NCBI GenBank assembly: GCA_019323195.1
Contig: JAHWHQ010000036.1
Location: 2,952-66,951 of the forward strand
Length of the DNA stretch: 64,000 nt
Source of the DNA: Candidatus Woesearchaeota archaeon
GTDB lineage: Archaea > Nanobdellota > Nanobdellia > Woesearchaeales > JACPBV01
Direction of reading: 5' to 3'
In this document: piece after piece, positions 15,051 through 62,943 of the stretch
Layout of the letters: the number at the start of each line of letters is the position of its first letter
Numbering within the stretch: position 1 is the stretch's first letter
Translations under genes and position numbers: made by a program
Notes under the pieces: model-generated
Seen by the model: the letters and a program-made list of their open reading frames with translations, nothing else
Database searches by the model: none
What the model was told of the DNA's origin: nothing

Positions 15051-15574
15051 ATAGTTTCCATATGAAATGGAGGTATTTAAAGTTTTAGGTGTTATACGGG
15101 AGTAGTGGATTCTTAATTGTATGTAAAGTATGTTCTATGTCGTAGGAGGGGTGTAATAATAGTTGGGTATTTTGGGGTAGATAAGCTCGTTTTACTGTTT
15201 AGAACACACCCCTTGATTTCTTATGGAAAAATGGATTTAAAGATTTTGGCTTTTTTTTGTTTTTTGTTTTTTTATTCTTTTCTATATAGAAAATAATAAT
15301 ATAATAATAAATATAATAAAGATATAAATAAAGAATAAAGAATAAAAATGATAAAGGAGATAATGAGGAATAATAAATAAAGAATAAAAATGATAAAGGA
15401 GATAATGAGGAATAATAAATAAAGAATAAAAATGATAAAGGAGATAATGAGGAATAATAACTAAAAGATAAAGATAATCCGGAAGTAAATATAACTTCCA
15501 TAGGAAAAAGGGGGGTAGCCCTTGCCTAGTAGAAAGAAATATTTATTAAGGCTGGATGTGGGCATTTACTTAAA
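15051..15574. other. Putative replication origin (oriC). ORB-like boxes: 15056-15075 in + orientation, 15205-15229 in inverted orientation, 15495-15520 in + orientation. An AT-rich DUE-like stretch lies at about 15235-15490.
   Basis: The boxes read tTTCCAtatGAAAtGGAGGt (15056-15075), the reverse complement tTCCAtaaGAAAtcaaGGGGtgtg (15205-15229) and cTTCCAtagGAAAaaGGGGGGtagcc (15495-15520). All fit the archaeal ORB pattern TTCCAnnnGAAA followed by a G-string. Two of them in opposite orientation bracket a region of more than 85% A+T. The position next to orc1/cdc6 is also typical. Confidence 0.65.
15334..15459. repeat. Perfect 42-bp tandem direct repeat x3 (aataaagaataaaaatgataaaggagataatgaggaataata) inside the AT-rich origin region
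   Basis: Read directly. Copies are at 15334-15375, 15376-15417 and 15418-15459, with a partial copy upstream. The repeat generates the spurious in-frame ORF 15199..15501 on the minus strand. Confidence 0.9.
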
Positions 15575-16387: not shown

Positions 16388-16446
16388 GGGTTTTTTCTTT
16401 TAGTCTGGAAATTGTTTTTTGACTGAAGGGTTTTCTTTTTATGGGA

Positions 16447-16475
16447 CTACATACTAAGTATGTAGTAGTATGTAG
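16447..16475. promoter_or_regulatory. Palindromic operator-like element ctacatact-a-agtatgtag plus a third half-site agtatgtag
   Basis: A perfect 9-bp inverted repeat with an extra direct half-site, about 120 bp upstream of the RHH gene. A second perfect palindrome cttagttaactaag (16559-16572) and a TATA-like tatatata (about 16530) lie closer to the start. Confidence 0.5.
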
Positions 16476-16590
16476 TTTAAAAGGGAAATCTTTATATACC
16501 AGTTATTTCAGGAATAACTTATATACTTAAATATATATAACTAACCGAACTTATTAAGCTTAGTTAACTAAGTTACTTGGATTGTTCCAA

Positions 16591-16725
16591 ATGACAAGGG
16601 TAAACGTAGAGATCGACAATGAGCTGCACAAGAAAGCTAAGCTGAACGCTCTTCTTAAGAACCAGACTTTAATCGAGTATATTCATGAGGCTCTGAGGGA
16701 AAAGGTAAAGAAAGATGGTAAATAA
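16591..16725 (+). CDS. Ribbon-helix-helix (CopG/Arc/VapB-like) small DNA-binding protein, 44 aa
   Basis: MTRVNVEIDNELHKKAKLNALLKNQTLIEYIHEALREKVKKDGK. The layout is a beta-strand (RVNVEID), helix, helix, which is typical of RHH. It is not in the ORF track because it is under 60 aa. Its last 11 nt overlap the ATG of the giant gene at 16715. Confidence 0.6.
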   Translation: MTRVNVEIDNELHKKAKLNALLKNQTLIEYIHEALREKVKKDGK

Positions 16726-19700
16726 GAAAATATTTGTCTTTTTGGTCATGGCTGTTTTTTTGGCTAGTCTGGTCAGGTCCATAGTTCTTTTACCGGAAAA
16801 CCCATTATATGGTTGTAAATTAGATGTACAATATTCAGATGGGGGCCAAATAGACACTAACCCCACCCAGCCATGGAGCGGAGGGGTCAGGTTTGATGGC
16901 AGCAGCAAAAGGATATCCTTTGTAGGCTATGTAAACGGGGACGATGCGATTGATTTGAAGGTGACGTGTTCCGACCCAGGATTACAATCATGCATTTTGA
17001 GAGCAAGAGACGCAGACTCGGTGATATGGAAGTCTGGCAGGTTTGATGGAACCCCTGTAAGGATATCTTTTACAGGCCCGGTGGGCAGCGGTGATGCTAT
17101 TGAGGTTAAGATATACTGCCCCTCTCCTGGGGTGAGAAACAATTGTAAGCTATATGGCAGATACTCAGATTTAGGTCAAATAGATTCTAAGTCGTGGGGG
17201 GATGGGGTTAAGTTCGATAACTCACCATTGGAGATATCGTTTACAGGGGTGGTTAGTAATGATGATGATATAGACCTGAAGATCGAATGCGACTGCCCAT
17301 GCCCTTTTGGCTTGTGTTGTGATAACTGCCAGTTCAGGGATGCGGGAGAGGTATGCGGGAATGTTCCAAGTGATTGTTTGAGTAAGACAGGGGCTGACTA
17401 TTGTTGCGATAAACCAGAGGTATGTGATGGGGCAACGCCTGGCTGCCCTCCAGATAACGATGTCCAAGACAGCAACTATGTTTGCAGGAACCCAAAGGCA
17501 TGTACCGAGCCGGAATGCTGCGACTTACCTGAAAAATGTGACGGCTTAACTAAATACTGCCCTACAGAAGATAAAGTTAAGGATGAAGGGGTACTTTGCA
17601 AGACAGATACAAGGGCATGCTATGATGATGGGTATTGTGACGGGGAATTCCCTGTTTGCTTGCCAAACCCTGCCCCCAAGGATACTCCATGCACTACCGA
17701 CGATGGCAAATCAGGCTATTGCGACCTTGATGGGAACTGTAATGCCGGATGCAGCTCTGATCAGACCTCTCTTTCAAGAAAATCTTCAATGACCGGCTCT
17801 TCAGACACAAATGATATCCCGCAAGATCTCAACGATCAGGCGTGCTGTGACAGTGCAGAGATGTGCGTATATGCCGGAGCGTGTTATCTTGGCACTTCAG
17901 ATAGGTCATATTATCTAAATGCCCTGGGCATTAATGATGTTATCTGCAGATCGAATACCTGGCATGACTGCGATTACAAGGAGGACTATTGTACTGGCTG
18001 GGGTGTGTGCAGTATAGGTATTGGGCGCTGGATAAAAAACGGGGAGGAACAAACAATAGGGGAGTATAATACAGCCTATCCCAATCCAACAGAGAAGTGC
18101 TGCGGTGATGATGCCGGGGAGAAATACGTATCAAGAAATGTTGTAGGTTCAGACTCTGACATTCCGGCAGATGCAGATGACGTGGCCTGTTGTTCCAGCA
18201 GCACTGATTGCGTCTATGACGGCAAGTGCTATGATGCTGGCTCTACAGACCCTGGCAGTTACTGCAAGGGACAAAAGTGGAATGGAGGGGATGATTTACC
18301 AGAGGCATGCCCTCTCTTGGGCGGAACATGGGATGCAGCCATGGCGGCGGGTAGCCAATGCTGCGGCGATGATGAAGGAGAGACGCCAAAATCCCGGGAG
18401 GGGGATTATGCTGACCTTAATGATGAAGCCTGCTGCGGTAGCGATGAATGCGTCCTTAGTGGGGGATGTAAGCCGTATCTTGCTACCTATGACCTGAGCA
18501 GCTACAGCGTTTTAGACGATTCTGCTGACCTAGAGGTGTGCATGTCATCCGGGTGGAAGGATCCAGATTTTAGCCAGGAAGCGTGCCAGGCCGTAAATAA
18601 CAAAAGAACAGATGGAGGGGGAAACTTAATCCCTACATTATGGATGGCGGGGGGGGAGTGCGGATATGGCACTGGGCAATGTGATGATGCCCCTAATTCC
18701 CCAAATAAGATGAATTTCTGCTGCGGTGACGACCCTTGGGAGCTTTTTAACCCTGCCAGGAGCGGAACTAAGTGTTTTATCCACCCGGATTACGGGTGTT
18801 CCCATGATGGTGTGGACTATATATATAAGCCGATGGTAAATGGGAAGTATACTGATGATGACTGCTGTAAAGGCACATGCCCTGAAGGGGGATGTTGCGA
18901 TAAGAACTGCAATTATCTGCCTGATACCCATATATGCAGGGAAGCGGCGTCAGAATGTGATGTGGCTGAAAAATGCACAGGAACGAGCCCAGACTGCCCA
19001 GACAACGCCTTTGAACCAATCGGTACAGAACCTCCTTGCGGGAAGTGCGACGGGGCAGGGAACTGCGGGGAATGCCTTCCTACCGAGTTTAATAACCACC
19101 GAGAATCAATAAAACCTGCTATACCTATAGATGATAAATATCCTTATTTCCCAACACTTACTACAGACAAGGCATGCTGCTCAGAAATAGATGATTGCGT
19201 GTATGACGGCAAGTGCTATGCCAGCAACAGCGGCAGGCCAGAGGGCAGCCCCCCTGTTGATATTATGGGCGCTGTCTGTTATATCCCTGAATCACAAAAG
19301 TGCCCCACCTGCATAAGGGGCGGAACATGGTATGACTGCGACAATGACCAGAGCTTTTGCACGAATAATGAGTGGGGATGTTCCCTGAACTGGGTGGCCA
19401 GCGGGGAGGCTGGTGTCGGGGAGTACGGCGCTGAGGGAACGATGGAATGCTGCGGGGATGATTTTGATACTGACGGCAACCCCCAGGAGTTCTTTAAGGT
19501 AATCAAGCTGGGCAGCGATTCTACACTTTCGGTTTCAGGAACAGACAAGGCATGCTGCAATTCAGGCAATGACTGCGTTGAGAATTATGAATGCTATGAT
19601 CCAGGAAGGCTGCATAAGGGTGGGAAGGATTACTGCAATGCAACAGGAGGATGGGAGGGAGGGGATAATTCAGAGGCTGCATGCACGGCAATAACAAAAG

Positions 19701-22700
19701 CTGCAGGAAGGTGGGATATAGACTTTGAATCTTCCGTTGCTGCAACAGGACCGTGCTGCGGTGATGATGATGCTACAGAGAGGTTTGTTACCTGTGACAT
19801 TGATGATTTTTGCAGCGATACAGCAAAAACAGCGTGCTGCGACAATACGCATGACTGCGTATTTGACGGGGTATGCCATCCTGCCTATGATGCCAGCAAT
19901 CCAAAGCCGGAATCTTTCCTTGATATGAAGAATGGCCTTCCTCTATGGGACACATCTTCTGACATGGAGGTCTGCATCGATGATCCGGTGGCAGGGAGGC
20001 TGGGTTGGAAAGACCCTGATGATTATGATGGTGCCTGCTCTGCCGTGAACAACAGGCCGAACCCTACTAGGTGGATGTCCGGGGCAGATACAAGCTGCGG
20101 CCTTGAGAGGGAAGGGAGGGTATGCGATGATTCTCCCAGCGGGCTAAACACGGCAGATTTCTGCTGCGGCGATGATGAGGGGGAGGTTTTTAGGGAAGAG
20201 GAAGGTTTTGAGAATGCGTGCCTTGTCAAGGGCGGATGCTATTTTGAGGGACAACACTTCCTGGACGGGGAATATTCAGGGGATAATTACTGCCAGAACG
20301 GTGAGGTCATACAGAGAACGAAGCTTATTGCCCTACAGCTGTTGGACATAGCAAACAAGGAAAGCCCTTCGCATTATACATTATTCTGCGACAGCTATGA
20401 GAATGCCCTTAACTATTATAGCTACGACCTTAATCCGCCGTATTCAACTTCAGCCTTTCCTTATACAGATAAAATCAATAATGTATGCCTCTTAAGGCTA
20501 AAAGACCAGGTAATATTCGGGACATCCTTAGATGACCCTATAGACGAAGGGGCTTACCCTTTCATTAACGTACTAAAGGATATAAAAAGCAATCTTGACT
20601 GCAGCAGCGTGCAAGGTGTAGGGGACTGGCAGTTCCATAGCTGCAATACTCTTAAGGTATGGTATAATGATAAGATACAGAGCGTAATATACAGCAATAA
20701 GGACCTAAACCTTGGGAACCTTGATTTTGATGAGAAGTTCTTATTGTTCCTGAAGAACCCGTTCCAGAACATATTTGATTCAATTATCAGCTTATTTGGG
20801 GAGTCGAAGGTTGATCCCGAGGATTATGGGTTCCTGAAAGACAGCAAGAAGTTTTCAAGGATATACCTTGACAGGACAGGGGTCAAGTCCATAAAAGGTG
20901 TTATAGAGGATGATGCAGAAGCAGGAGAGTACCTTTCTATAGCCTATAACTGCTATACTGATGATATATGCGAGACAGTAGAGGCTGCGCAGGAGAGATT
21001 TGGGGCCAAAGGGATATTTGGAGGGGATGAGATCAGCTGCAGTTATAAGCCGGATATCTCCACTTATTATGTTGCAAGCAGATCACCTACCCGGCTGGAC
21101 ATGTGGCCGCAGCTGACAGCAGGCTTGAGGACGAAGAATGTAAAGCTTCCTACAGGGCTTACAATAACCCCGCGCATAAAGGCGCCGGAAAAGGCTATAA
21201 AGGGCTATCCTGTAGAGTTCCAGGCAGATGTTGAGGGGGCCTGCATCTCACCCCCTTATACCTATTCCTGGACTTTTGGGGATGCAGGAACAGGCTCAGG
21301 AGAGGCGCCAACACATGCCTATACTGCAACAGGCAGCTATATTGTGGGCTTAACAGTTGAGGAACAGAAAGATGCTTCAAACCATGGAAGCGGCACCCAT
21401 AGCCTGGAGGTTATTGACATTAAAGATTGTGAAATAAGGGATAAATCAGTTGGATGTGATGCTGGAGCCCTTGAGCAGTGCATCATGTCATTATCCGCAG
21501 GGGCAGATGCTACAGCAGACGAGGCATGCGACAGCGTCTCGCCATACGAGCTTTGCTGCCAGAATATATTCCAGGTGGATACTGCCCCGGGGGGGTGCGG
21601 GGAGGCGGGGCTTATCTCATTGTCACAGACCTTTAACGGCAGGGCAGACGGGTATAACCAGGGGACGTTTGCAAACGACATCTGCATAAGGTCGGCTGTG
21701 GAGGGGATGAAGGCCAGCTGCAGGCCTGTACTTAAAGGAGATACTTTCAATAACCTTGGTGGCGAGGTGTGCGTCCTTTCATTATCTGCTTTTAAGGGGG
21801 GCGTAATCTCGGGATGCGACCCCAATGCTGAAGTGAATATCTACTGCAGGATTATCGATGAGGCTGTAAATGTTGAAAACTGTGAGAACGGCGAGAATGA
21901 TGATGGAAGCGGCCTTGATGACTGCGAGAACGCGGCCTACTGCCCGACAGGGACATTCTGCAATGCGGAGCATACGCAAAGATGCACAAAAGACGCATCT
22001 GACAATCGCCTGTGTGAATGCATCGATAATGATGGTGACGGCTATGGCGCTTGCGCTGGTGCGGATTGTAATGATCCTGCTACATGTGACTGCAATGATG
22101 GTGATCCCTCAATACATCCAGGTGCAGCTGAAACCTGCGATAATGTAGATGAGGACTGTGACAAGCTAGTTGATGAGGGTGTAACAAAACAAGAGGCATG
22201 CAGTGTCGGCTGTCCTGGAAACAAATGCACTTTTACATGCTCAGCAGGGGCGTGGACTGAAGACCTTTCTAACGCTTATAATGGGGCTACTCTAGAGGTG
22301 TGTGATGCTTTGGATAATGACTGCGACGGGGAGATTAATGAGGGTGTAACAAGAATGGTTTTCTGCGGCGACTATGGAGTCTGCAAACTCCAAAGCCATA
22401 CTCAAACATGCAACATAGCTGGTGAATGGGTTCCTGCTACCTGTGATACAACTACAATCCCTAATTATAACACTAATGATGATTGTAGTGATACCTTAGA
22501 TAATGACTGCGATAATTCTGTAAATGAGGATGGGTTGGAGACATTCTATAAAGATGGCGATTCAGACGGGTATGGGCTGCAGACAGATTTACAGGAGGCA
22601 TGTGCAGGTTCGCTGCCTGCTGGCTATGTCGCTTCTAAACCCGACGGTTATGACTGTAATGATGGCGATTGGAGGATTAATCCTGGGAAGACCGAGACCT

Positions 22701-25021
22701 GCGACGGGCTGGATAATGACTGTGACTCAACAACAGCGGACGGCTCTGATGAATCCTGGTTTGGTGCTGCCTGTGACGGCACAGACGCAGATCAATGCGC
22801 TGACGGATTCTATGTATGCACTGCAGAGGTAAAGGCATGTACAGACGATGCTGCCAATAGGATTGAGGTATGTGACGGCGATGATAATGACTGTGATGGT
22901 TTAACGGACGAAAATGTTCTGACTACATACTATCAGGATGCAGATGGAGATGGCTATGGAAAATATTCCAGCACAAAACAGGATTGTACACCACCTGTAG
23001 GTTATGTCGCTTCTAAGCCCGATGGTTATGACTGTGATGACACCAAGCCAGGTATTCATCCAGGAGCCACTGAAACCTGTGATGGCCTAGATAATAATTG
23101 CGTGGATGGAACGGATGAAGGGTGTGATTGTGTAACCGGAGCCACGCGAGACTGCGGGGCAAGCAATACAGCACCATGTAAATATGGCAAAGAAACCTGT
23201 GTAAATGGCGCGTGGAGCGGCAGCTGCATCGGCAATATAGACCCCGCCACTGAAATCTGCGATGGTGTGGATAATGACTGTGACGGCTCAACAGACGAAA
23301 CATATTCAAACTGCCCTGCCGCTTATATTGATGCTCCTAATTGTAAGTCCTATGCAGCCAGCACCTGTAGTAGCGGGAGCTGCACTGCTCAAGCAGCTTC
23401 TGATGCTCCTGATAACACCATATGTGAAGTTAGCACAGGCAGGGTCTGCAAAGGGGGCACTTGTTGTGTTGCTAATCTGGGCCAGCCATGCTTAAATGGT
23501 TATGGCAGTTCCTGCGTTAATCCAGGGACTATACAATGCGACGGAAGCTGCACAGGCTGGACTTTTAAGGATAAAGGTACCTCTTGTGGCGGTTATCTCC
23601 ACCAGTGTAATGGTGCTGGAAGTTGTTGTACAGGCCCTGAGTTAAATGTAGATTGCATCTCTACTTGCGGGAACGGCGTCTGTGATTCTACAGAATCCTG
23701 CAATAAATGCCCTGAAGATTGCCCTATTGCAGCATTTTCTGCCAGCGGAACAGGATGCGCAGCATGCCCCTTAGGATCCTATGCTGGGGAGGGAGGCGTC
23801 ACATACTGCAAGACTCCGATTGACTCCTGCCTAACTGCCTCATTTAGGTATCGTTGTACTGGTTGCGCAGGATCAGCCTGTTGTACCTGGGTTAAAGCAA
23901 GCTGTTTTGTTCCTTACTCTGAAGGCGTCCCCTGCCGAAGTTATACCGAGGATCTTATGTGGAAGATTTCCAGCGACCCATCTATAATTAACGGTCTTTC
24001 ATGCGCCCCTACCTGCCCACAGCTCCTTATCAAATCAGAAGATGGAACCCTAACTTACCAAAACAATATCATTAAGGGAAATATCCTGCCAAACCTGGAA
24101 ACACTAAGGTTTGATAAATTCAGGCAAAGGATTCAGCCTGGCGACAAGATTGTAATACACGAGGCCGGTGCAGGGGATGTTACTTACCTGAACTCTCTTG
24201 AGTTGGTGGGCTATAAGAGCTTAGAGGGAAAGACAGAGGTCCTTCTTGACCAGAGCTTCAACCCTGTAGGGTTTAATCAAGGGGATTTAGTGTCCACCCT
24301 CCCTGAAACTGAGATACAGGATTACCTTGAATACAACGAGATAAATCTTGATGGGGAAGAGGCATACCTTTACCTGACAGGAGGGATAACATCCCAATGG
24401 ACCACCAATCTGCGCGAGGTCGTAATGAAGAAGCTTGCGCACCCTAAACTGTATGAGCTGGCTCCGGGATTTGTGGATCTTGTAGGGACAAACCTTTCCT
24501 TCTATGCCAATATTGTTGTGGAGGTGGAGAAAAATGGTGTCTGGCAGAGATTAAACATGCCTAAGGTTTTGATCATGGAGAATCATGAAACAGCTGTTGT
24601 AAGATTACCTGCAGGGGCATCCAGAGTGCGGACCCGAACAATTTTGGGGATGTACCAGTTCGACAGGTTTGCATTGCTTCCGGTTTCAGATGCAGACCCT
24701 GATATAGAACAAAAAACATTCACATTAAAGGATAATGCCCAATTAGCAGAGACTGACGGCCTATACAGCGAAATTGAGAAGGACCCGCTTGAGATTGACC
24801 TTGCTGATTTTAATGATGCGGAAGAGATACAGAACTACGACAATTTTTACCTTAAGACAAGCGGATATTACCTTTACGGGAAACGGGCAATGGAAGATAT
24901 GGAGAGCACACTTATGGATGATTTAGTTCTGGCCTATAGGCTGAATAAGATTAAAAAATGGCTCAGTTCCCCTGAAGAATATATGGAAGAGATAATGGAT
25001 TTTGCAGGAATGAAGTCGTGA
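16715..25021 (+). CDS. Giant secreted Cys-rich surface protein (2768 aa)
   Basis: Signal/anchor is MVNKKIFVFLVMAVFLASLV. Three N-terminal repeats of about 55 aa (YSDGGQIDTN...ISFVGYVNGDDAIDLKVTC) are encoded at about 16820-17290. At least six Cys-rich modules of the form CCGDDxGE ... ACCxSxxDCVxDGxCY follow. A PKD-like domain (YTYSWTFGDAGTGSGEAPTHAYTATGSYIVGLTV) is encoded at about 21150-21420. MopE-like putative metal-binding motifs (CxDxDxDGYG, DNDCDGxxDE, HPGAxETCDGxDN) at about 21990-23320 recur at least six times. The C-terminal approximately 450 aa are Cys-poor. Confidence 0.85.
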   Translation: MVNKKIFVFLVMAVFLASLVRSIVLLPENPLYGCKLDVQYSDGGQIDTNPTQPWSGGVRFDGSSKRISFVGYVNGDDAIDLKVTCSDPGLQSCILRARDADSVIWKSGRFDGTPVRISFTGPVGSGDAIEVKIYCPSPGVRNNCKLYGRYSDLGQIDSKSWGDGVKFDNSPLEISFTGVVSNDDDIDLKIECDCPCPFGLCCDNCQFRDAGEVCGNVPSDCLSKTGADYCCDKPEVCDGATPGCPPDNDVQDSNYVCRNPKACTEPECCDLPEKCDGLTKYCPTEDKVKDEGVLCKTDTRACYDDGYCDGEFPVCLPNPAPKDTPCTTDDGKSGYCDLDGNCNAGCSSDQTSLSRKSSMTGSSDTNDIPQDLNDQACCDSAEMCVYAGACYLGTSDRSYYLNALGINDVICRSNTWHDCDYKEDYCTGWGVCSIGIGRWIKNGEEQTIGEYNTAYPNPTEKCCGDDAGEKYVSRNVVGSDSDIPADADDVACCSSSTDCVYDGKCYDAGSTDPGSYCKGQKWNGGDDLPEACPLLGGTWDAAMAAGSQCCGDDEGETPKSREGDYADLNDEACCGSDECVLSGGCKPYLATYDLSSYSVLDDSADLEVCMSSGWKDPDFSQEACQAVNNKRTDGGGNLIPTLWMAGGECGYGTGQCDDAPNSPNKMNFCCGDDPWELFNPARSGTKCFIHPDYGCSHDGVDYIYKPMVNGKYTDDDCCKGTCPEGGCCDKNCNYLPDTHICREAASECDVAEKCTGTSPDCPDNAFEPIGTEPPCGKCDGAGNCGECLPTEFNNHRESIKPAIPIDDKYPYFPTLTTDKACCSEIDDCVYDGKCYASNSGRPEGSPPVDIMGAVCYIPESQKCPTCIRGGTWYDCDNDQSFCTNNEWGCSLNWVASGEAGVGEYGAEGTMECCGDDFDTDGNPQEFFKVIKLGSDSTLSVSGTDKACCNSGNDCVENYECYDPGRLHKGGKDYCNATGGWEGGDNSEAACTAITKAAGRWDIDFESSVAATGPCCGDDDATERFVTCDIDDFCSDTAKTACCDNTHDCVFDGVCHPAYDASNPKPESFLDMKNGLPLWDTSSDMEVCIDDPVAGRLGWKDPDDYDGACSAVNNRPNPTRWMSGADTSCGLEREGRVCDDSPSGLNTADFCCGDDEGEVFREEEGFENACLVKGGCYFEGQHFLDGEYSGDNYCQNGEVIQRTKLIALQLLDIANKESPSHYTLFCDSYENALNYYSYDLNPPYSTSAFPYTDKINNVCLLRLKDQVIFGTSLDDPIDEGAYPFINVLKDIKSNLDCSSVQGVGDWQFHSCNTLKVWYNDKIQSVIYSNKDLNLGNLDFDEKFLLFLKNPFQNIFDSIISLFGESKVDPEDYGFLKDSKKFSRIYLDRTGVKSIKGVIEDDAEAGEYLSIAYNCYTDDICETVEAAQERFGAKGIFGGDEISCSYKPDISTYYVASRSPTRLDMWPQLTAGLRTKNVKLPTGLTITPRIKAPEKAIKGYPVEFQADVEGACISPPYTYSWTFGDAGTGSGEAPTHAYTATGSYIVGLTVEEQKDASNHGSGTHSLEVIDIKDCEIRDKSVGCDAGALEQCIMSLSAGADATADEACDSVSPYELCCQNIFQVDTAPGGCGEAGLISLSQTFNGRADGYNQGTFANDICIRSAVEGMKASCRPVLKGDTFNNLGGEVCVLSLSAFKGGVISGCDPNAEVNIYCRIIDEAVNVENCENGENDDGSGLDDCENAAYCPTGTFCNAEHTQRCTKDASDNRLCECIDNDGDGYGACAGADCNDPATCDCNDGDPSIHPGAAETCDNVDEDCDKLVDEGVTKQEACSVGCPGNKCTFTCSAGAWTEDLSNAYNGATLEVCDALDNDCDGEINEGVTRMVFCGDYGVCKLQSHTQTCNIAGEWVPATCDTTTIPNYNTNDDCSDTLDNDCDNSVNEDGLETFYKDGDSDGYGLQTDLQEACAGSLPAGYVASKPDGYDCNDGDWRINPGKTETCDGLDNDCDSTTADGSDESWFGAACDGTDADQCADGFYVCTAEVKACTDDAANRIEVCDGDDNDCDGLTDENVLTTYYQDADGDGYGKYSSTKQDCTPPVGYVASKPDGYDCDDTKPGIHPGATETCDGLDNNCVDGTDEGCDCVTGATRDCGASNTAPCKYGKETCVNGAWSGSCIGNIDPATEICDGVDNDCDGSTDETYSNCPAAYIDAPNCKSYAASTCSSGSCTAQAASDAPDNTICEVSTGRVCKGGTCCVANLGQPCLNGYGSSCVNPGTIQCDGSCTGWTFKDKGTSCGGYLHQCNGAGSCCTGPELNVDCISTCGNGVCDSTESCNKCPEDCPIAAFSASGTGCAACPLGSYAGEGGVTYCKTPIDSCLTASFRYRCTGCAGSACCTWVKASCFVPYSEGVPCRSYTEDLMWKISSDPSIINGLSCAPTCPQLLIKSEDGTLTYQNNIIKGNILPNLETLRFDKFRQRIQPGDKIVIHEAGAGDVTYLNSLELVGYKSLEGKTEVLLDQSFNPVGFNQGDLVSTLPETEIQDYLEYNEINLDGEEAYLYLTGGITSQWTTNLREVVMKKLAHPKLYELAPGFVDLVGTNLSFYANIVVEVEKNGVWQRLNMPKVLIMENHETAVVRLPAGASRVRTRTILGMYQFDRFALLPVSDADPDIEQKTFTLKDNAQLAETDGLYSEIEKDPLEIDLADFNDAEEIQNYDNFYLKTSGYYLYGKRAMEDMESTLMDDLVLAYRLNKIKKWLSSPEEYMEEIMDFAGMKS

Positions 25022-26653: not shown

Positions 26654-26730
26654 TATTTTAATTGCTCAAGAAGGCGTTTGATTATTCTTGATTGTTGACA
26701 TTTAGAAATTGCCCCAAAACCAAAAATCTT

Positions 26731-26753
26731 AAATACATACTTAATATGTATTT
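26731..26753. promoter_or_regulatory. Palindromic operator-like element aaatacata-cttaa-tatgtattt
   Basis: A perfect 9-bp inverted repeat. Its core ACATACT..(A)GTATGT is related to the palindrome at 16447-16465. It lies about 160 bp upstream of the second RHH gene. Confidence 0.45.
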
Positions 26754-26912
26754 ATCTTATTATTTCATACTAAGTAATCCTTATTGCTGGTGACCTTTAA
26801 AATCGTAACTTTTAAATATTACTTACTAAATAATACAACATAATCTAGGGTATGCAATAGTAATCACCACAAGGGCTAAGATCGTTTTGGGGAAAATGTA
26901 AGAGGAGAGAGA

Positions 26913-27053
26913 GTGAAAGAGAGGATTACGATTACTATTGATAAGGAACTTCTTAATTGGTTAGATAAGAAAATAGATGAAAAGGTTTTTGCAAACAGGT
27001 CTCACGGCCTAGAGTTTCTTATAAAACGGAGGATGGAGGGGGAGAATGAATAA
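26913..27053 (+). CDS. Ribbon-helix-helix (CopG-family) small DNA-binding protein, about 46 aa, GTG start
   Basis: VKERITITIDKELLNWLDKKIDEKVFANRSHGLEFLIKRRMEGENE. It shows the CopG-type signature (RITITIDxELxxxLD...NRSxxIxxLI). The stop TAA at 27051-27053 overlaps the ATG of the giant gene at 27046 (sequence gagAATGAATAAgg). The start codon is uncertain and could be GTG at 26913. Confidence 0.55.
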   Translation: MKERITITIDKELLNWLDKKIDEKVFANRSHGLEFLIKRRMEGENE

Positions 27054-30000
27054 GGCAGCCAGATACAGCCTTGTTCTTGTTGTTATAGTATTGATGGCTA
27101 TGCTGAGCTTTAAGCTTGCTTTGGCAGATGAGGGATGCTGTTATGCTAAGGCAACCCATCAATGCACTTATTCCATTAAAGGAACCCCCCAGGAGACAAC
27201 AGAAACTGCATGTTTAGTGAGCTCTAATAATATCTGGGATGATGACCCTACATGCGCAGGCATACCTGAATGCGAGATGGGATGCTGCTGCCAATCAAAC
27301 CAGCCGCTTTATACGATAAGGGGGGAGTGCGATGTAAGGAAGCTGGAATGGGTCAAGACAAATGAGGAAGGGTGTAATTATCATTGCATAAGCGGAATAC
27401 CAGCTTGCAAGCCAAACTGCGAGGTCAATGGTGGCGAGTGTGTAGGGGTAGGAGGCAAGCTTGCTGCTGCCGGGAAGAGATACTGCGGGGCAGACGGCAG
27501 CTTGTATGACAACTGGGCAGATTGCCTGCAATGCATGGAGGAAGCCTCTCTCCCTGAATGCGGGCTAGATGCCGCGATAACAGTAAAATGCACCTATGAT
27601 GATATTATATATCCTCCTGAGAATGGGGGTTATCTATGCTTAAATGGAGTATATGTTCCTGGCGATAAAAGTGCCTGTGTTGGTGATTGTTCTACAGGCG
27701 GAACGATGATAACGGCAGACTGCTTTTGCGGAGGTGTCAAGAAGTCAGACGGCTATTGCTGCGTGGATGGGATGCATTATCCTACACAGGCAGGATGGAA
27801 AGCGTGCAATGATGCTGCAGGAAGCACCTGTGAAGGGGTTGGCTTTGTGTGCTCGGATGCCTGCGATACAGCCGAAGACAGAAATGCTGCTTTTGATTAT
27901 GGCAGCTGTACAGATGCAACAAAATGCTGCCCCACTGACCTTCCTTACTGCTGCGAGAAAGAGGCTGTCTCTTATGCATACTGCTGCGACCAGTATGAGG
28001 AATGCACCGGAACTGACCTATATAATGAGCCCGAATCTGACCCTTATAGGTATATCTATAAGTCCTGCAATGCAGGTGACCTGTCAAAAAAGCCATGCAC
28101 TGCAGAATGCAAGAGGTTAGAATGCTCGCAGGGAAACTGGAGGATAAACAGCGGGGCTAATACACATCCAACACTTACACACTGTTACTGTGACGGAAGC
28201 CCAAGGGACATATCCTTTGACGGGGGATATTGCTGCGCAGACGGCGGAGATGGAAAATATCAGACCACTCCGTGCATCATTGAGACAGGAGACGTATTAG
28301 GCTATGTTTATAATCTGCTTGATAATGCCCGGATAGCAGATGCAGATATAAATGCCTATAGGTTCGGGACGAAAATAGGCTATACTGTCACCAACAATAA
28401 TGGGGAATATACACTTTCAAACATGCCTTATGGCGGGTATAAGATATATGCTTCAAAAGATGGCTTTAAGGCAAATAGTATAGATGTTGACCTTATTGCC
28501 CCCCAGCTGCAAAACAAGAACATAGGCTTAATACCTTATACTGAGGGACCGTGCGATTCCTGCAGCCCGCCAGCACCCGTCATCACCGCAGAGCCTGTAA
28601 GGGGGAAGGAGGGAATAGAGCTTTCATGGAACATACCTGAGGATACTTCTTTTTGCAGTTCTTCTTTGACTGACAGCTTTGTTATAGAAAAGAAAGAGGC
28701 TGCAAAGAAATTGGCAGAGATGAGGACTGACCAGGCCATTTTAATTGATAATGATGTTTCATGGGATACCACTTATACCTATTCAACAACTGCGCATTAT
28801 ACGACCAATGCCATAAGCACATCTCAAGATTCCTTTCCAGTATCCCCTGGAAGCGCATTTTGCGAGGGCATATACAGCGATGATATGGAGTTCTGCCTTT
28901 CAGACGGCTTTATACAGGCAGACACCAATAATTACAGGTACAGGTGCGACCATAACAATAATCTTGTTAATGTCTATCTCAGTTCACCATCTTCGCAGAT
29001 GGGGCCGAGCTGCACTGATGAGGGCAAGGATGTTTGCGTCGGGCCCGATACAACAGGGGAGACAGAATGCATAGAACAGCCAGACTGCAGGGAGATGGGG
29101 GATTTTAAGCCGTTCGGGCTGTATTATGATGAAGACAGCTGCCTTGACAACGGGGACAGCTGGTGCTATTATGATTCCTCCACTACAATAATAGACAAGT
29201 GCGACAACTGCAGGGCAAAGAGCTGCTATGATTATAAGAGCAAGGAGGCATGCGAAGCTGATAACTGCAGGGCAGGGGGGCTTTATATTGACAGGGAGAC
29301 AGGGGCCAACAATGGATGCAAATGGATACATACATGGGAGGAGTATGGGAAGGGGATATGCTATGACCCTGACTTCAACGGCCAGGAATGCGGCTTATGC
29401 AGCAATGAGGGAGACCTTTTCTTCAATACCGGCTGTACACAAACAATATGCTCGGCTTTAGGAAAATGCTATTCCAGCTCAGATGGATGCATGGAATGCG
29501 CGGAAGGGACAGCATGTGAAGATTATGAGAATGAAGAGGCGTGTGTTGGCATAGTCGGTAATGAACAGGAGATTGATTTTGTGAACAATGCTGGCTGCGG
29601 CATTAATAATATACCTCTTGAAATACAGCCCAGCAATGATGCCTGCGGACTTGGGGTGTGCAAGTGGGACAGCACAATGAAAAGCTGTTACAAGGATGCG
29701 GATGATGATCTTGTTGAAGACTGCGGTGAAGGAGAGGTAATCTGCATGAAGGATTCAAAACCTCCTGTGACAAGCCCGGAGATGAGCATACCTAACATTG
29801 GGCTTTCAGGACATCATATACAGTTTATTGTGCCATATCAGGGGTGGTCTTATGCAGAAAAATTCTATTATTGTGTGGATGCATCCAATACGTGCTGCCC
29901 TACTTCTGAGAAAAACCTTGACTGTGTTGTTAATACAGGGAAGTGTACGGTTATAGGTGGGGTAAACCCTGTGGAAGACCTGGCAGATTCAGAATATACA

Positions 30001-33000
30001 TCCAAGGGCCCTGGCATATATTACATAAGGTATTATTCTGTTGATAATTATAAAAATACTGAAGAGGTAAAAAGCCTTGCCTTTTACCTTGATAAGGACC
30101 CCCCTGATTATTCTTTAACCTACGAGACTGAAAAAGAGGGGGAGAAAGAAGGGCAGGCAATATCCAGCCTGGAGATCAACCTTGAATCTGATGAATGCAT
30201 AAGCTGCTCTTATATGATGGTTGTTCCTTTGATAGGGGATCCAGTTAAAAGCGGCGGTTTTGTTTTAGGAGAGGCAGATAAGGTATCCAAACTGGAATTT
30301 AGCGGCCTTGAGGATGGGATATATACCTGCACAACCAACTGTTTTGATGATGTCGGGAATGAGATGAAGAAGGACTGGCAGATAGTGGTCGATGCTATGC
30401 AGGAGATAACACAGTTCTACCCCTATGATAAGACATTGAAGAAAACACAGATAGACTTTTCTGTCAATACGACCGATGATTCGACATGCACTGCAACGGG
30501 CATCCTTGGGTATTCAGGAGCTGACATAACCTTCACTCAGGAGCAGATATCAAGGAATAAGTTCGCACATACCTATTCAGGGACGTTCGGAGACGGGACA
30601 TACCATCTTGAGGTTGACTGCGAGCCTGTCCTTGGCGTTAAAAAGCCAGACTCTGTCTTCCTTTCATTTACAGTAGACGCAATACCTCCAGCTACTGTGG
30701 TCAAGAGCGGAGGGGAGGTTTTTGACTTCTCAGCCTGGCACAGGACAGATACAGAACCCCCTTTAAAACTAAGCCTGGAATGCGATGACCCTGATCTTGG
30801 TGACCAGCCAGGGGAGTTTGGCTGTGAGCATACAAGCGAATATATAAAATACTGCCTTGGGCCTTCATGCACGCTTAGCGATGACGACCCTTCTTCAATC
30901 CCTATAACAGGGGACTATTCTACCTACATCAGCTATTATTCTGTCGATAAGGGGGGGAATATAGAAACAACACAGACCAAGCTGGTAAAGGTTGATAATG
31001 GGGTGCCTCAATTGAATTTAAACCCGCCAGCCAATGATGTGGTCAATACCCCTGAGATAACAATAACAGGGACCTATTCTGACGGGCTTTCAGGCGTCAA
31101 GGAGGTTGTCATATTCATTATAGATTATGATGATGTTTCTTTTAAGTCTATCAAGATTGCTCCTGCTCCCAGCGGTTTGCTTTCATATAATACTCAGCTG
31201 TTTGGAGGCAGGAACATTATACTTGTCTCTGTAGAGGATAATGCCGGCAATAAGATAGAGGATTCATTTGAGGTGTTCTATGATCTGGATGCTCCTTTGA
31301 TAGATGCAGAGGTATTTAACCATGAGGGCTATGGGATAAGGAATAAGTCCGGAGGTCGATACGCAGAATACGGGAAGGATATAACCTTAGGAGCGGGGAT
31401 CACTGATGATTCATCAATCAGCAGCGCCAAGGTTACACTCGAGTGCAATACTGAATCTTCATTTTCCAGGTGCTCCTCCTATACCAAAACTACTTTCGAT
31501 CTTGAGCAGGATCCTTATGATGCTAAAATCTTTGGGAAGGTCCTTTCAGGCAGTTTGCCAATCGGCAATTATACGGCAACCTTTGAGGCATGGGACAATT
31601 TTAACCAGTACGGCAAGACAAACTTATGGTTCTTGGTAAATGATACAGCTAAGGTAAGCTTCCAATTAAGGCCGGATGCCCCTCCTGTAACCTATTCCCC
31701 TTCCCTTACACTTACAGGGACTGCCAGTGAAGCAGGCATACTGGTAAGCGCTTACCTGTGCGATGAGAACTGTTTAAACTGCGGGGATACTGCAGCTTCT
31801 TCAGATTACGGGGATGCAACAAATGACCCCAAGGAGGGGTTTAGGGATGTCGCTTTAGTTGATCTTGTCTATCTTGATCCTCCTAAAGAGGGGGAAACGA
31901 CCATCCTATGGAAGGGGAGCGCATTTGATTCTATCACAAGGCATATCGGGGCAGGGGATTTCCTTAGGTTTTCAGATGATGCCACTGGAACATTTTATGA
32001 GATACTTTCTATTAACTCTGCATACCATCCTCTTGGGTTTTATATCAATACTATAGAATTGCGTAACGAAATAAAGCAGAATATAAACAGGGGAACTGTC
32101 TCAGCATATGACTATGGCACGCCGACAGGATGGTTTGAATTAGGGCTTGCCCTTAGTTCTGGTACCCAGTGCGTGGTCGTTGCAGCAGAAAGGATTGCTA
32201 CAGGGGTAAGGGCGAAAAGCATAGCCCGGAAGATAACATACGACACCAGCGGTTTTGACATAACCCTTGAAGAGCCGTCTGACGGAGTCGTCAATTATGT
32301 TGATTTTGATGCTGCTGGCAATTCTATGCCTATCAGGATAAAGACAGAAAGAGGAGGTTCTGGCTTTAGGGCGGACTGCGTAATAAGCCATACAGCAGAT
32401 ATCATTGCAGGGGGATTTGCAGGAAAGGTTATGGGTACGACAGATAAGATAACGCATATATTTACTCTCAATTCTGATTCCTGCAAGGAGAACGGAGGGG
32501 ATTACTGCCTTATTGGCGGGACATCTGCTTACCCTGTCAATCACCACCATTATGCGGTTGAATGCACGCCTTCTGATCCTTCTTATGCCAATATGGCTTC
32601 CCAGACCACAGAGGTGTGCTTTACTGCGGCAACTTACGGGCTGCAGACAGGAGGGCTTCCAAGAGGGGTTAATATCTGCCAGGCTTCGACAGGGTGCGGC
32701 TCTTCAGTTCCTGTGGCATGCGGCGGAGCAGTAGACTGCACAGATACAGACCATAGCTCCAGCCAATCTGACTGCATAGAAGAAGACATATGCAAGTGGA
32801 GCGGCAGCTATGGATGCGGCACATCATGCCATCCTGGTTTTGAAGACAATGATAATGATGGGGTCTGTATAGATGCTTCTGTTGTATGCTCAAACAATGA
32901 TAATGACCAGACTAACTGCTTGGCACAAAATGCCTGCAAATGGTGCCCTGCAGGAGCCACATCCAATGCGAACAAATGCCTGCAGGAGAGTTGCGATACC

Positions 33001-41892: not shown

Positions 41893-41901
41893 AACCATAA
41901 A

Positions 41902-50256: not shown

Positions 50257-50295
50257 ATTGTATTGAAAAAACTTTTATAACTAAAGGTAATTTTC

Positions 50296-52471: not shown

Positions 52472-52510
52472 TTTTATATAACAATTTTTTTACTTATTAT
52501 TTAAAGTTAA

Positions 52511-53791: not shown

Positions 53792-53827
53792 TTGGCTAAT
53801 ATTATTTTTTTACTTATTTAAATTTTT

Positions 53828-55326: not shown

Positions 55327-55366
55327 GGGGGTATATAAATCTATTGGGCAAGATTTATAATATTCT

Positions 55367-62798: not shown

Positions 62799-62865
62799 AA
62801 AAAGCCAAAATAACAAAATCTACTAAGTGGGATTATCTGGACCTATAATTATCAAAAATAGATCT

Positions 62866-62940: not shown

Positions 62941-62943
62941 ATA

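What the first reader, a model, noticed from the sequence alone, without database searches (positions are those of the whole stretch)
16447..16475. Related palindromes lie upstream of both RHH genes
The first site, upstream of the first RHH gene, is ctacatact-a-agtatgtag plus an extra agtatgtag half-site (16447-16475). The second site is aaatacata-cttaa-tatgtattt (26731-26753). Both share the core ACATACT...(A)GTATGT and lie 120-160 bp upstream of the RHH starts in AT-rich intergenic DNA. RHH dimers typically bind such inverted or direct repeats. If the two sites are cognate operators, the two giant-gene units are under cross-talking or autoregulatory control. A further perfect palindrome, cttagttaactaag, lies at 16559-16572, about 20 bp before the first RHH start.
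Basis: seen in the sequence. Interest (0 to 1): 0.55.

Follow-up and report, generated by a model that had tools for sequence, protein, structure and literature searches.

The report
Operator sites for tiny archaeal RHH regulators
Two related DNA palindromes in an uncultured Woesearchaeota (DPANN) archaeon are most likely binding sites for one tiny ribbon-helix-helix regulator (RHH2) that sits in front of giant surface-protein genes; the mechanism is ordinary, but it makes the control of these giant genes testable.

Summary
Site 1 (16446-16466, plus a third half-site at 16467-16475) and site 2 (26730-26754) share a 17-bp core, TACATACTnAnTATGTA. The core occurs nowhere else in the window.

Comparison with about 70 related loci from Woesearchaeota shows that the TACATACT/AGTATGTA word follows the RHH2 family, not RHH1.
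- It is the most enriched 8-mer upstream of RHH2 genes (7/8 loci, then 2/2 held-out loci).
- It occurs upstream of only 2/59 other RHH1 genes.
- Every match with two or fewer mismatches in 1.93 Mb lies within 400 bp upstream of such a gene.
- The words are spaced at exact multiples of 10 bp.

RHH2 resembles the DNA-binding domain of NikR and has the same R-T-T β-strand. NikR reads GTATGA.

RHH1 genes have their own conserved promoter and a leader array of TAAGTTA/AACTAAG words.

Best model: RHH2 autoregulates its own giant-gene operon. In this lineage it also controls the RHH1 operon through site 1. No binding was tested, and the sign of regulation is inferred. This is a new member of a known kind.

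The parts
16446..16466 (.). Site 1: perfect palindrome ACTACATACT-A-AGTATGTAGT, made of two RHH2-type half-sites in inverted orientation
   Evidence: Conserved exactly at the syntenic position in L004 and in degenerate form in L083/L163 and L150.
16467..16475 (+). Third RHH2-type half-site AGTATGTAG, direct, 10 bp from the second and pointing towards the RHH1 promoter
   Evidence: Half-site centres lie at 16451, 16461 and 16471. L004 keeps a third word, AATATGTA, 10 bp on. The RHH2 locus L179 has the same three-word layout.
16491..16498 (+). TATA box TTTATATA of the RHH1 promoter, preceded by a BRE-like aaagggaaatc; it lies 100 bp before the ATG
   Evidence: Conserved in sequence and position across RHH1-family loci. 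TTTAWATA peaks at -120 to -90.
16513..16542 (+). Conserved block AATAACTTATATACTTAAATATATATAACT, which spans the predicted transcription start of the RHH1 unit
   Evidence: Nearly identical in L083, L095 and L122 and recognisable in L101 and L091, although the flanks have diverged. The start-site position is inferred from the TATA box.
16538..16577 (.). Array of RHH1-type words (TAACTAA, AACTTAT, CTTAGTT, AACTAAG, TAAGTTA), including the perfect palindrome CTTAGTTAACTAAG at 16559-16572; candidate operator of RHH1 itself
   Evidence: TAACTTA/TAAGTTA is the most enriched 7-mer upstream of 59 RHH1 loci (p = 2e-37). The words cluster at -100 to -1. Word positions in the window are listed.
16591..16725 (+). 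RHH1 gene (44 aa, MTRVNVEID...), a stand-alone ribbon-helix-helix protein
   Evidence: AF2 model pLDDT 86. Foldseek matches Arc, CopA and SvtR with TM 0.76-0.88. Pfam hits fall below the curated cut-offs.
16715..25021 (+). Giant gene (2768 aa; MopE, PKD and disintegrin-like repeats); its start overlaps the end of RHH1 by 11 nt
26730..26754 (.). Site 2: perfect palindrome TAAATACATA-CTTAA-TATGTATTTA with RHH2-type core TACATACTtAATATGTA (26734-26750). The TATA-like cTTAAATA (26728-26735) overlaps its left edge
   Evidence: An orthologous element lies upstream of RHH2 in L095, L173 and L163. A TATA box abuts the word in L095, L173, L175, L170 and L180.
26764..26778 (+). Degenerate third word TTCATACTAAGTAAT, 30 bp after the first word of site 2
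   Evidence: CATACTWAGTA occurs in 5/8 RHH2 loci against 1/59 RHH1 loci.
26811..26818 (+). TATA box TTTAAATA of the main RHH2 promoter, 102 bp before the GTG start
   Evidence: Conserved position (-75 to -102) and sequence in RHH2 loci.
26849..26868 (+).
   Evidence: Orthologues carry one to three GTATGYA words 10 bp apart at -30 to -65. AGTAATCACC is conserved in L095 and L163.
26913..27053 (+). RHH2 gene (46 aa, GTG start, VKERITITID...), a stand-alone RHH protein similar to the NikR N-terminal domain
   Evidence: The family profile hits the NikR RHH domain at E = 9e-4. AF2 model pLDDT 91. Foldseek matches ParD2 and NikR.
27046..44697 (+). Three large genes in a row (2012, 2935 and 931 aa). 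The first overlaps the end of RHH2 by 8 nt
   Evidence: The same layout is found in L163, L164 and L167.

Best explanation
The window comes from a Woesearchaeota/Nanoarchaeia (DPANN) archaeon. Two unrelated families of tiny stand-alone ribbon-helix-helix proteins, RHH1 (44 aa) and RHH2 (46 aa), are the first genes of operons for very large, probably surface-exposed proteins.

The TACATACT/AGTATGTA word is the recognition element of RHH2. RHH2 dimers are proposed to bind these words cooperatively on one face of the DNA, which explains the 10-bp phasing.

At its own operon, RHH2 would bind two places: the distal palindrome (site 2, overlapping a TATA-like box) and a degenerate word just after the main transcription start. 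That gives negative autoregulation.

In this lineage a three-word RHH2-type array (site 1) has also been placed 15-45 bp upstream of the BRE/TATA of the RHH1 operon, so RHH2 would control the neighbouring giant-gene unit as well. The most likely route is spreading from the high-affinity site over BRE/TATA, as proposed for the archaeal viral RHH protein SvtR.

RHH1 itself most likely binds a different element: the TAAGTTA/AACTAAG word array in its own roughly 70-nt leader, which includes CTTAGTTAACTAAG.

Shown here: the sequences, their family-specific conservation, their phasing and promoter geometry, and the RHH folds. Inferred: which protein binds which word, the sign of regulation, and the transcription start sites.
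For: 1. Organism and genes. Orc1/Cdc6 and PolD are present, and the relatives are Woesearchaeota/Nanoarchaeia MAGs.
2. Fold. Both small proteins model as strand-helix-helix with pLDDT 91 and 86. Their best structural matches are RHH proteins with TM 0.8-0.88.
3. Unbiased k-mer discovery, window excluded. AGTATGTA/TACATACT is the top 8-mer upstream of RHH2 genes: 7/8 loci against 27/1250 low-GC background windows, p = 4e-11.
4. Reciprocal specificity against RHH1 loci: 7/8 against 2/59, p = 3e-7.
5. Location. All matches to TACATACTnAGTATGTA with two or fewer mismatches in 1.93 Mb lie within 400 bp upstream of RHH2 genes, or upstream of RHH1 in the window and L004. The chance of 8 of 8 independent hits falling there is about 4e-14.
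6. Held-out test. Two further RHH2 loci, fetched after the hypothesis was made, both carry the word. L179 has the same three-word layout as site 1.
7. The word follows RHH2, not giant genes. It is present where RHH2 precedes an ABC-transporter operon (L170). It is absent from 57/60 RHH1-led operons.
8. Spacing. Word distances peak at 10, 20, 30 and 40 bp (10, 5, 5 and 4 pairs). There are none at 9, 11, 19, 21, 29 or 31 bp, and shuffles give about 0.07 per distance.
9. Divergence. RHH2 upstream regions otherwise share only 21-79-bp blocks; the ones I checked contain these elements and the promoter/leader.
10. NikR parallel. The RHH2 β-strand R-I-T-I-T aligns with R-V-T-I-T of NikR. NikR's operator half-site is GTATGA (PMC7055735), against GTATGTA here.
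11. Precedent. SvtR binds a distal site about 80 nt upstream of the TATA box of a structural gene and also represses its own promoter (PMC5569661).
Against: - No binding experiment or transcript map exists. The protein-to-word assignment rests on co-occurrence and on analogy with NikR.
- The independent RHH2 sample is small: 10 lineages, all from one archaeal group.
- Site 1 and site 2 both lie upstream of the main TATA boxes. In archaea that position is also typical of activators.
- The sub-word ACTAAGT is enriched upstream of both families, so some overlap in specificity, or RHH1 binding to the centre of site 1, cannot be excluded.
- Pfam RHH models are matched only below their curated cut-offs.
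- Foldseek E-values are weak because the proteins are so short.
Confidence: 0.65

Rival explanations
1. One reading: each palindrome is the operator of the RHH gene directly downstream of it. RHH1 binds site 1, RHH2 binds site 2, and the two sites resemble each other because the two proteins have similar specificities.
For: - Each site lies upstream of an RHH gene.
- Site 1 is conserved in L004 and partly in L083 and L150, upstream of RHH1 orthologues.
- Both proteins begin their β-strand with an arginine.
- ACTAAGT is enriched upstream of both families.
Against: - The exact word is present upstream of only 3/60 RHH1 genes, although the RHH1 β-strand is almost invariant across the family.
- The family-wide conserved element upstream of RHH1 is a different word.
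- The two proteins show no pairwise similarity and only an 11-column profile match.
- Their base-reading residues differ: R-N-E in RHH1 against R-T-T in RHH2.
Confidence: 0.12
2. The palindromes are binding sites for a third, unidentified regulator that happens to control RHH2-led operons. RHH2 itself binds something else, or is not a DNA-binding regulator.
For: - Co-occurrence cannot identify the binding protein.
- Distal sites upstream of BRE/TATA are typical of archaeal activators, which are often of other families (own knowledge).
- Only 64 kb of the genome was examined.
Against: - The word travels with RHH2 into a different operon context (L170).
- It stays with tandem RHH2 duplicates (L179, L180).
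- The 10-bp phased arrays of short words are typical of RHH proteins (PMC5569661).
- The word resembles the half-site of NikR, which has the same β-strand residues.
Confidence: 0.13
3. RHH2 binds the words as proposed, but the distal sites 1 and 2 act positively, as upstream activating sites that help recruit TBP/TFB. Only the leader words repress.
For: - Site 1 ends 15 bp before the TATA box, and site 2 lies about 60 bp before the main TATA box.
- Binding just upstream of BRE is the usual geometry of archaeal activators (own knowledge).
Against: - In L170, L175 and L180 the same word lies between the main TATA box and the predicted start. In L095, L173 and at site 2 of the window a TATA-like box abuts the word. 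Both are repressor geometries.
- Most characterised stand-alone RHH proteins, SvtR included, are repressors (PMC5569661).
Confidence: 0.25
4. The palindromes act as RNA hairpins (terminators of the upstream genes, or leader structures), as replication-origin (ORB) elements next to cdc6, or are chance features of AT-rich DNA.
For: - Both palindromes fold as hairpins (z = -3.6 and -6.5).
- Each lies after the end of a co-directional gene and after T-runs.
- Site 1 is 1.4 kb from cdc6.
- Two 10-bp-arm palindromes are not in themselves unexpected.
Against: - Orthologous copies often have a degenerate right arm (AGTAAGTA, AGTAATTA) with no compensating change. Many words are direct tandem repeats that cannot pair.
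- No T-run follows either palindrome.
- In L170 and L163 the element has no co-directional upstream gene to terminate.
- The real ORB-like elements beside cdc6 are TTCCAnnnGAAA with a G-string, which is unrelated.
- Cross-genome conservation and phasing exclude chance.
Confidence: 0.04

Closest known systems
[quoted passage not shown]
   Same: - Small stand-alone RHH protein in an archaeal transcription system.
- Represses its own promoter.
- Also controls the gene for a large structural protein.
- Its highest-affinity site is an imperfect inverted repeat about 80 nt upstream of BRE/TATA, with proposed spreading towards the promoter (PMC5569661).
- The RHH1 model matches the SvtR structure 2kel with TM 0.76.
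   Different: - SvtR is viral and crenarchaeal, not chromosomal and DPANN.
- The operator sequence is unrelated.
- SvtR is not translationally coupled to its target gene.
- Binding is demonstrated for SvtR and not here.
NikR (E. coli, H. pylori), N-terminal RHH domain and its operator GTATGA-N16-TCATAC
   Same: - The RHH2 family profile matches the NikR RHH domain at E = 9e-4, with the same R-x-T-x-T β-strand and the NRS motif.
- The NikR half-site GTATGA (PMC7055735) is close to the GTATGTA word found here, also in inverted orientation.
   Different: - RHH2 has 46 residues and no C-terminal metal-binding tetramerisation domain, so it is not a NikR and probably not a nickel sensor.
- Half-sites are adjacent (10-bp phasing), not separated by 16 bp.
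- That Arg3, Thr5 and Thr7 of NikR read the half-site is from my own knowledge and was not verified here.
Arc and Mnt of phage P22; CopG of pMV158; ORF56 of Sulfolobus plasmid pRN1
   Same: - RHH proteins of 45-55 aa.
- They bind as dimers of dimers to short inverted or tandem subsites about one helical turn apart.
- They repress their own promoters (own knowledge).
- The RHH1 model matches Arc with TM 0.85-0.88, ORF56 with 0.77-0.84 and CopG with 0.77-0.86.
   Different: - Those proteins act on bacterial sigma-70 promoters or in plasmid copy control.
- Here the promoters are archaeal BRE/TATA promoters with long leaders, and the regulated genes encode giant proteins.
- No sequence-level family membership was detected.
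Omega repressor of plasmid pSM19035
   Same: An RHH protein that recognises arrays of short (7-bp) repeats in direct and inverted arrangements at several promoters (own knowledge). This resembles the variable direct and inverted arrays of 7-8-bp words seen here for both families.
   Different: - Bacterial plasmid partition and copy control.
- Unrelated words.
- Not compared by any tool here.
RHH antitoxins of type II toxin-antitoxin systems (ParD, HicB, VapB), the names some databases give RHH1
   Same: - RHH fold.
- Weak Pfam hits to HicB, ParD and VapB.
- Source annotations such as 'HicB family antitoxin'.
- Expected autoregulation through operators at the promoter.
   Different: - There is no toxin partner. 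The downstream gene is usually a large protein of 500-2768 aa, and the one in the window starts with a signal-like hydrophobic N-terminus.
- The protein has no C-terminal toxin-binding extension.
- All Pfam scores fall below the curated cut-offs.

Membership tests
Ribbon-helix-helix (CopG/Arc/MetJ) transcription factor with operator | N-terminal β-strand followed by two helices (RHH fold) | tested here: met
   AF2 models with pLDDT 91 (RHH2) and 86 (RHH1) show an extended N-terminus plus two helices. The best Foldseek matches are RHH domains: ParD2 and NikR for RHH2, and Arc, CopA, PutA and SvtR for RHH1, with TM 0.75-0.89.
Ribbon-helix-helix (CopG/Arc/MetJ) transcription factor with operator | Sequence membership in a curated RHH family (Pfam gathering score) | tested here: not met
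   RHH2 scores 13.3 bits against RHH_1 (cut-off 20.5). RHH1 scores 18.0 against HicB (21) and 16.0 against ParD (27.3). The RHH2 family profile does hit the NikR RHH domain in the PDB at E = 9e-4. The RHH1 profile hits ParD only at E = 0.11.
Ribbon-helix-helix (CopG/Arc/MetJ) transcription factor with operator | Operator made of repeated short subsites, inverted and/or direct, about one helical turn apart | tested here: met
   Site 1 half-site centres are 10 bp apart. Across loci the word distances peak at 10, 20, 30 and 40 bp.
Ribbon-helix-helix (CopG/Arc/MetJ) transcription factor with operator | Operator located at the regulator's own promoter (autoregulation) | tested here: met
   RHH2-type words lie upstream of, or in the leader of, 9/10 RHH2 loci outside the window. 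RHH1-type words lie in the leader of 50/59 RHH1 loci. This is positional evidence only.
Ribbon-helix-helix (CopG/Arc/MetJ) transcription factor with operator | Dimerisation and sequence-specific DNA binding through the paired β-strands | not testable with these tools
   This needs EMSA or footprinting, or a complex structure. Only monomer models were made.
NikR nickel-responsive regulator | C-terminal ACT-like metal-binding tetramerisation domain | tested here: not met
   RHH2 is 46 aa, and family members are 44-64 aa. The alignment to NikR covers only NikR residues 2-32.
NikR nickel-responsive regulator | RHH domain with an R-x-T-x-T β-strand that reads GTATGA-type half-sites | tested here: met
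   The β-strands align as RITITID against RVTITLD. The associated word GTATGTA compares with GTATGA. This is resemblance, not proof of binding.
Type II toxin-antitoxin RHH antitoxin (ParD/HicB/VapB) | Adjacent small toxin gene and a C-terminal toxin-binding region | tested here: not met
   Downstream genes are large or giant proteins with overlapping starts, or an ABC transporter. The proteins consist of the RHH domain alone.
Archaeal origin recognition boxes (ORB / mini-ORB) | TTCCAnnnGGAAA-type core, often with a G-string, in inverted copies flanking an AT-rich unwinding element next to orc1/cdc6 | tested here: not met
   Such elements do exist at 15055-15073, 15211-15229 and 15496-15516 around an AT-rich repeat region. 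They are unrelated to TACATACT. Site 2 is 11.7 kb from cdc6.
Intrinsic terminator hairpin | G+C-rich stem followed directly by a T-run, downstream of a co-directional gene | tested here: not met
   The stems are A+T-rich and no T-run follows them; the T-runs come before site 1. In L163 and L170 no co-directional gene lies upstream. The arms degenerate without compensating changes.

The most novel reading that the evidence does not exclude
Two unrelated families of tiny RHH proteins may form a conserved two-tier circuit across Woesearchaeota, sitting next to the replication origin in this genome.

- RHH2, with a NikR-like DNA-reading strand, would act as master regulator. It would nucleate on phased GTATGTA arrays and control both its own giant-protein operon and the neighbouring RHH1-led operon.
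- RHH1 would separately gate its own unit through a leader array of TAAGTTA/AACTAAG words.

This would be a dedicated switch for the giant surface proteins that are thought to mediate contact between DPANN cells and their hosts. It would also provide a readable 'β-strand residues to DNA word' code, transferable from NikR to uncultured archaea.
Probability: 0.3. Interest if true: 0.65.

Novelty: new member of a known kind. Interest (0 to 1): 0.52.

Why it matters
Giant genes of 2,000-5,000 codons are a hallmark of DPANN archaea and other ultra-small symbionts. They are assumed to encode the surface proteins used to attach to hosts. Nothing is known about how they are controlled, because these organisms are uncultured. 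In the literature searches I ran, no paper linked RHH regulators to Woesearchaeota genes.

This analysis supplies concrete, testable parts:
- two conserved 44-46-aa regulators at the head of such operons;
- their probable DNA words;
- promoter and leader maps;
- a predicted one-way link between two adjacent units.

All of these can be tested with recombinant protein and synthetic DNA, without cultivation. The match between the RHH2 β-strand and NikR, and between their DNA words, suggests that RHH specificity can sometimes be read from sequence.

The mechanism itself, an RHH protein binding phased repeats at its own promoter, is textbook.

Tried and rejected
- **Fragments of the same genome.** Exact-protein look-ups of RHH1 and RHH2 returned only fragments of the window's own genome (L001, L002). 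These were useless for footprinting.
- **Synteny around Cdc6.** Eighty Cdc6 loci were fetched, but only L004 kept RHH1 next to cdc6. They served mainly for taxonomy and as background DNA.
- **The distal palindrome as RHH1's operator.** Rejected, because only 3/60 RHH1 loci have the word.
- **Palindrome length as evidence.** Two palindromes with 10-bp arms are not significantly more than chance, so this argument was dropped.
- **Known RNA genes.** Rfam and tRNA scans of the window found nothing.
- **RNA structure.** The RHH1 leader folds only modestly better than shuffles (z = -2.1) and the RHH2 leader no better (z = +0.5). The palindromes fold trivially because they are palindromes.
- **Origin elements.** Rejected after real ORB-like elements were found beside cdc6.
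- **Toxin-antitoxin reading.** The database names for RHH1 suggest an antitoxin, but the downstream genes and the lack of a C-terminal extension argue against it.
- **NikR contact residues.** A literature search for Arg3/Thr5/Thr7 returned nothing relevant. That point is marked as my own knowledge.
- **Pairwise comparison of RHH1 and RHH2.** BLASTP found no similarity. hhalign gave a probability of only 12% over 11 columns.
Full report
**1. The observation**

- Site 1 is CTACATACT-A-AGTATGTAG at 16447-16465. Its perfect arms extend to 10 bp (16446-16466). After one base, a third direct copy AGTATGTAG follows at 16467-16475.
- Site 2 is AAATACATA-CTTAA-TATGTATTT at 26731-26753, with arms that also extend to 10 bp (26730-26754).
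- CTTAGTTAACTAAG is at 16559-16572.

The best shared core is the 17-mer TACATACTnAnTATGTA. With up to two mismatches it occurs only at these two places in the window, against an expectation of 0.19. These are also the only two short-spacer perfect inverted repeats in the 64 kb with arms of 10 bp or more. Two such palindromes are not unusual in themselves: composition-matched shuffles give a mean of 0.85. The case therefore has to rest on other evidence.

**2. Context**

The window is archaeal. Orc1/Cdc6 (13839-15050, minus strand) and both PolD subunits lie just upstream. The closest Cdc6 relatives (up to 85% identity) come from Woesearchaeota/Nanoarchaeia MAGs.

The two small genes are:
- RHH1, 16591-16725, 44 aa, starting at the ATG (MTRVNVEID...);
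- RHH2, 26913-27053, 46 aa, starting at a GTG.

Each overlaps the start of a very large gene. RHH1 is followed by a 2768-aa protein with MopE, PKD and disintegrin-like repeats. RHH2 is followed by proteins of 2012, 2935 and 931 aa.

Pfam matches to RHH families fall below the curated cut-offs, but several lines support an RHH fold:
- AlphaFold models are confident (pLDDT 91 and 86) and show an extended strand plus two helices.
- Their best structural matches are RHH domains: ParD2 and NikR for RHH2; Arc, CopA, PutA, SvtR, ORF56 and CopG for RHH1, with TM 0.75-0.89.
- The two proteins are not detectably related to each other.

Both belong to large, tightly conserved families with 66-100% and 70-91% identity among listed members. 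Where a source names the organism, it is Woesearchaeota/Nanoarchaeota. Members of the two families occur on the same contigs.

**3. Which protein goes with which word**

I collected 80 RHH1-family loci, the syntenic locus L004, and ten independent RHH2-family lineages.

The distal palindrome is exact upstream of RHH1 only in the window and L004. L150 carries an exact AGTATGTA word within a degenerate palindrome, and L083/L163 have only a degenerate copy. That makes 3 of 60 non-redundant RHH1 loci with an exact 8-mer.

Every close RHH2 orthologue, by contrast, has the word upstream. An unbiased k-mer search that excluded the window gave:
- AGTATGTA/TACATACT as the single most enriched 8-mer upstream of RHH2 genes (7/8 loci against 27/1250 low-GC background windows, p = 4e-11);
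- TAACTTA/TAAGTTA as the most enriched 7-mer upstream of RHH1 genes (50/59 against 127/1250, p = 2e-37).

The reciprocal comparison is equally clear. The RHH2 word is in 7/8 RHH2 loci against 2/59 RHH1 loci (p = 3e-7). The RHH1 word is in 50/59 against 1/8 (p = 9e-5).

In 1.93 Mb of related DNA, every match to TACATACTnAGTATGTA with two or fewer mismatches lies within 400 bp upstream of an RHH2 gene, or upstream of RHH1 in the window and L004. Only about 2% of the DNA is in such positions.

Two further RHH2 loci, fetched afterwards as a prediction test, both carry the word. L179 has ATCATACT-g-AGTATGTAG-a-AGTATGCA, which is the same three-word, 10-bp-phased layout as site 1.

The word follows RHH2 rather than giant genes:
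- It is present where RHH2 heads an ABC-transporter operon (L170).
- It is absent from most RHH1-led large-protein operons.

The RHH2 upstream regions otherwise share only blocks of 21-79 bp; those I checked contain these elements and the promoter/leader. This is conservation under constraint, not recent common descent.

**4. Anatomy and likely mechanism**

Word-to-word distances peak at exactly 10, 20, 30 and 40 bp (10, 5, 5 and 4 pairs). There are none at 9, 11, 19, 21, 29 or 31 bp, and shuffles give about 0.07 per distance. This is the one-face phasing expected for cooperative RHH dimers (PMC5569661).

Several ordinary genes in the window, cdc6 among them, have a TATA-like box about 31 nt before the ATG, which implies leaderless mRNAs. 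Both RHH genes have their conserved TATA box at -100 and -102, which implies leaders of about 70-75 nt.

RHH2 loci typically carry two sets of words:
- one or more distal words, often a palindrome, and in five orthologous loci and at site 2 directly abutting a TATA-like box (TTTAWATACATACT);
- one to three GTATGYA words 10 bp apart in the leader at -30 to -65. The window's copy is GGTATGCAAT-AGTAATCACC at 26849-26868.

Words lying between the TATA box and the start, or just after the start, give a classical archaeal repressor geometry.

Site 1 ends 15 bp before the RHH1 TATA box (16491-16498). Two more dimers at the same phasing would cover BRE/TATA. This resembles the model proposed for SvtR, which binds about 80 nt upstream of the TATA box of a structural-protein gene and also represses its own promoter.

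The RHH2 family profile matches the RHH domain of NikR (E = 9e-4) with the same R-x-T-x-T strand. The NikR operator is GTATGA-N16-TCATAC (PMC7055735), which is very close to GTATGTA/TACATAC. That Arg3, Thr5 and Thr7 are the base-contacting residues in NikR is from my own knowledge.

RHH1 has R-N-E at the equivalent positions. It is associated with a different, family-wide architecture:
- BRE/TATA;
- a 30-bp conserved block at the predicted start (16513-16542);
- an array of TAAGTTA/AACTAAG words up to the ATG. CTTAGTTAACTAAG belongs to this array.

**5. Verdict on the interpretation**

The sites are related, non-random and very probably RHH operators, and they do connect the two units. However, both are RHH2-type. 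The best model is RHH2 autoregulation at site 2 and the leader, plus RHH2 control of the RHH1 unit through site 1. The latter feature is confined to a few related lineages. RHH1 would act through its own leader array.

Confidence by step:
- about 0.85 that the words are functional cis-elements tied to RHH2;
- about 0.7 that RHH2 is the binder;
- about 0.45 that the effect is repression by occlusion or spreading.

**6. Rivals**

- A third-party regulator: not excluded.
- Activation from the distal sites: possible.
- RNA hairpins or terminators: unlikely, because the arms degenerate without compensation, many words are direct repeats, no T-run follows, and in some loci there is no upstream co-directional gene.
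- Origin elements: the real ORB-like boxes beside cdc6 are unrelated.

**7. Novelty**

The mechanism is the well-known RHH operator scheme. What is new is the pair of uncharacterised families, their words, and their position at the head of giant-protein operons in DPANN archaea. My literature searches found no paper linking RHH regulators to Woesearchaeota genes. I rate it a new member of a known kind, of moderate interest.

Noticed in passing
window 15049-15516: Probable replication origin next to orc1/cdc6. Three ORB-like boxes are present: TTTCCATATGAAATGGAGG at 15055-15073, its inverted copy at 15211-15229, and TTCCATAGGAAAAAGGGGGGT with a G-string at 15496-15516. They flank a very AT-rich stretch with three to four 42-bp tandem repeats (15327-15478) and the palindrome TTTTCTATATAGAAAA (15278-15293).
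   Followed up: partly
window 62850-62944: A second promoter with operator-like repeats. Three direct copies of (T)CTACCAAT and an inverted TTGGTAGA lie upstream of a TATA box (gaTTTATATAct). The palindrome CTACCAATT-N7-AATTGGTAG lies downstream of it, just before an ATG at 62945. This looks like the site of another, unidentified regulator.
   Followed up: partly
window 16513-16542, and L083, L095, L122, L101: A 30-bp block, AATAACTTATATACTTAAATATATATAACT, about 13 nt after the RHH1 TATA box, is almost identical in distant RHH1 loci whose flanks have diverged. It may be a second TATA-like promoter, an initiator region or part of the RHH1 operator.
   Followed up: partly
L179 3187-3460; L180 4001-4269: In two lineages RHH2 is tandemly duplicated: two overlapping RHH2-family genes of 44-53 aa, followed by a protein of more than 1000 aa.
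   Followed up: no
L170 10001-14547 (also L171, L172): An RHH2-family member (86% identical) heads an ABC-transporter operon (ABC_tran, CARDB, two MacB/FtsX genes) instead of giant genes. The palindrome GTACATACTTAGTATGC lies directly after the TATA box.
   Followed up: partly
window 16455-16461 and 16566-16572; RHH1 and RHH2 loci generally: The sub-word ACTAAGT/ACTTAGT is enriched upstream of both families (24/59 RHH1 loci and 6/8 RHH2 loci). It forms the centre of site 1 and is also part of CTTAGTTAACTAAG. Whether this reflects overlapping specificity is unexplained.
   Followed up: no
window, e.g. upstream of 15050(-), 52471(-), 53791(-), 61165(-), 2035(+): Several ordinary genes have a TATA-like box about 31 nt before the start codon, suggesting mostly leaderless mRNAs. 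Both RHH-led operons have leaders of about 70-75 nt.
   Followed up: partly
window 55334-55359: The palindrome TATAAATCT-N8-AGATTTATA lies between divergent genes (54610-55326 on the minus strand, 55367 onwards on the plus strand). It looks like two back-to-back TATA boxes of a divergent promoter.
   Followed up: no
window 50000-54000 and 62000-63000: Blocks of markedly lower G+C (0.27-0.32, against about 0.45 elsewhere). These may be foreign or otherwise atypical gene clusters.
   Followed up: no
window 16591-44697; L163; L095: The RHH1-led unit lies directly upstream of the RHH2-led unit in at least three lineages. In the window and L163 the pair sits right next to cdc6 and the origin.
   Followed up: partly
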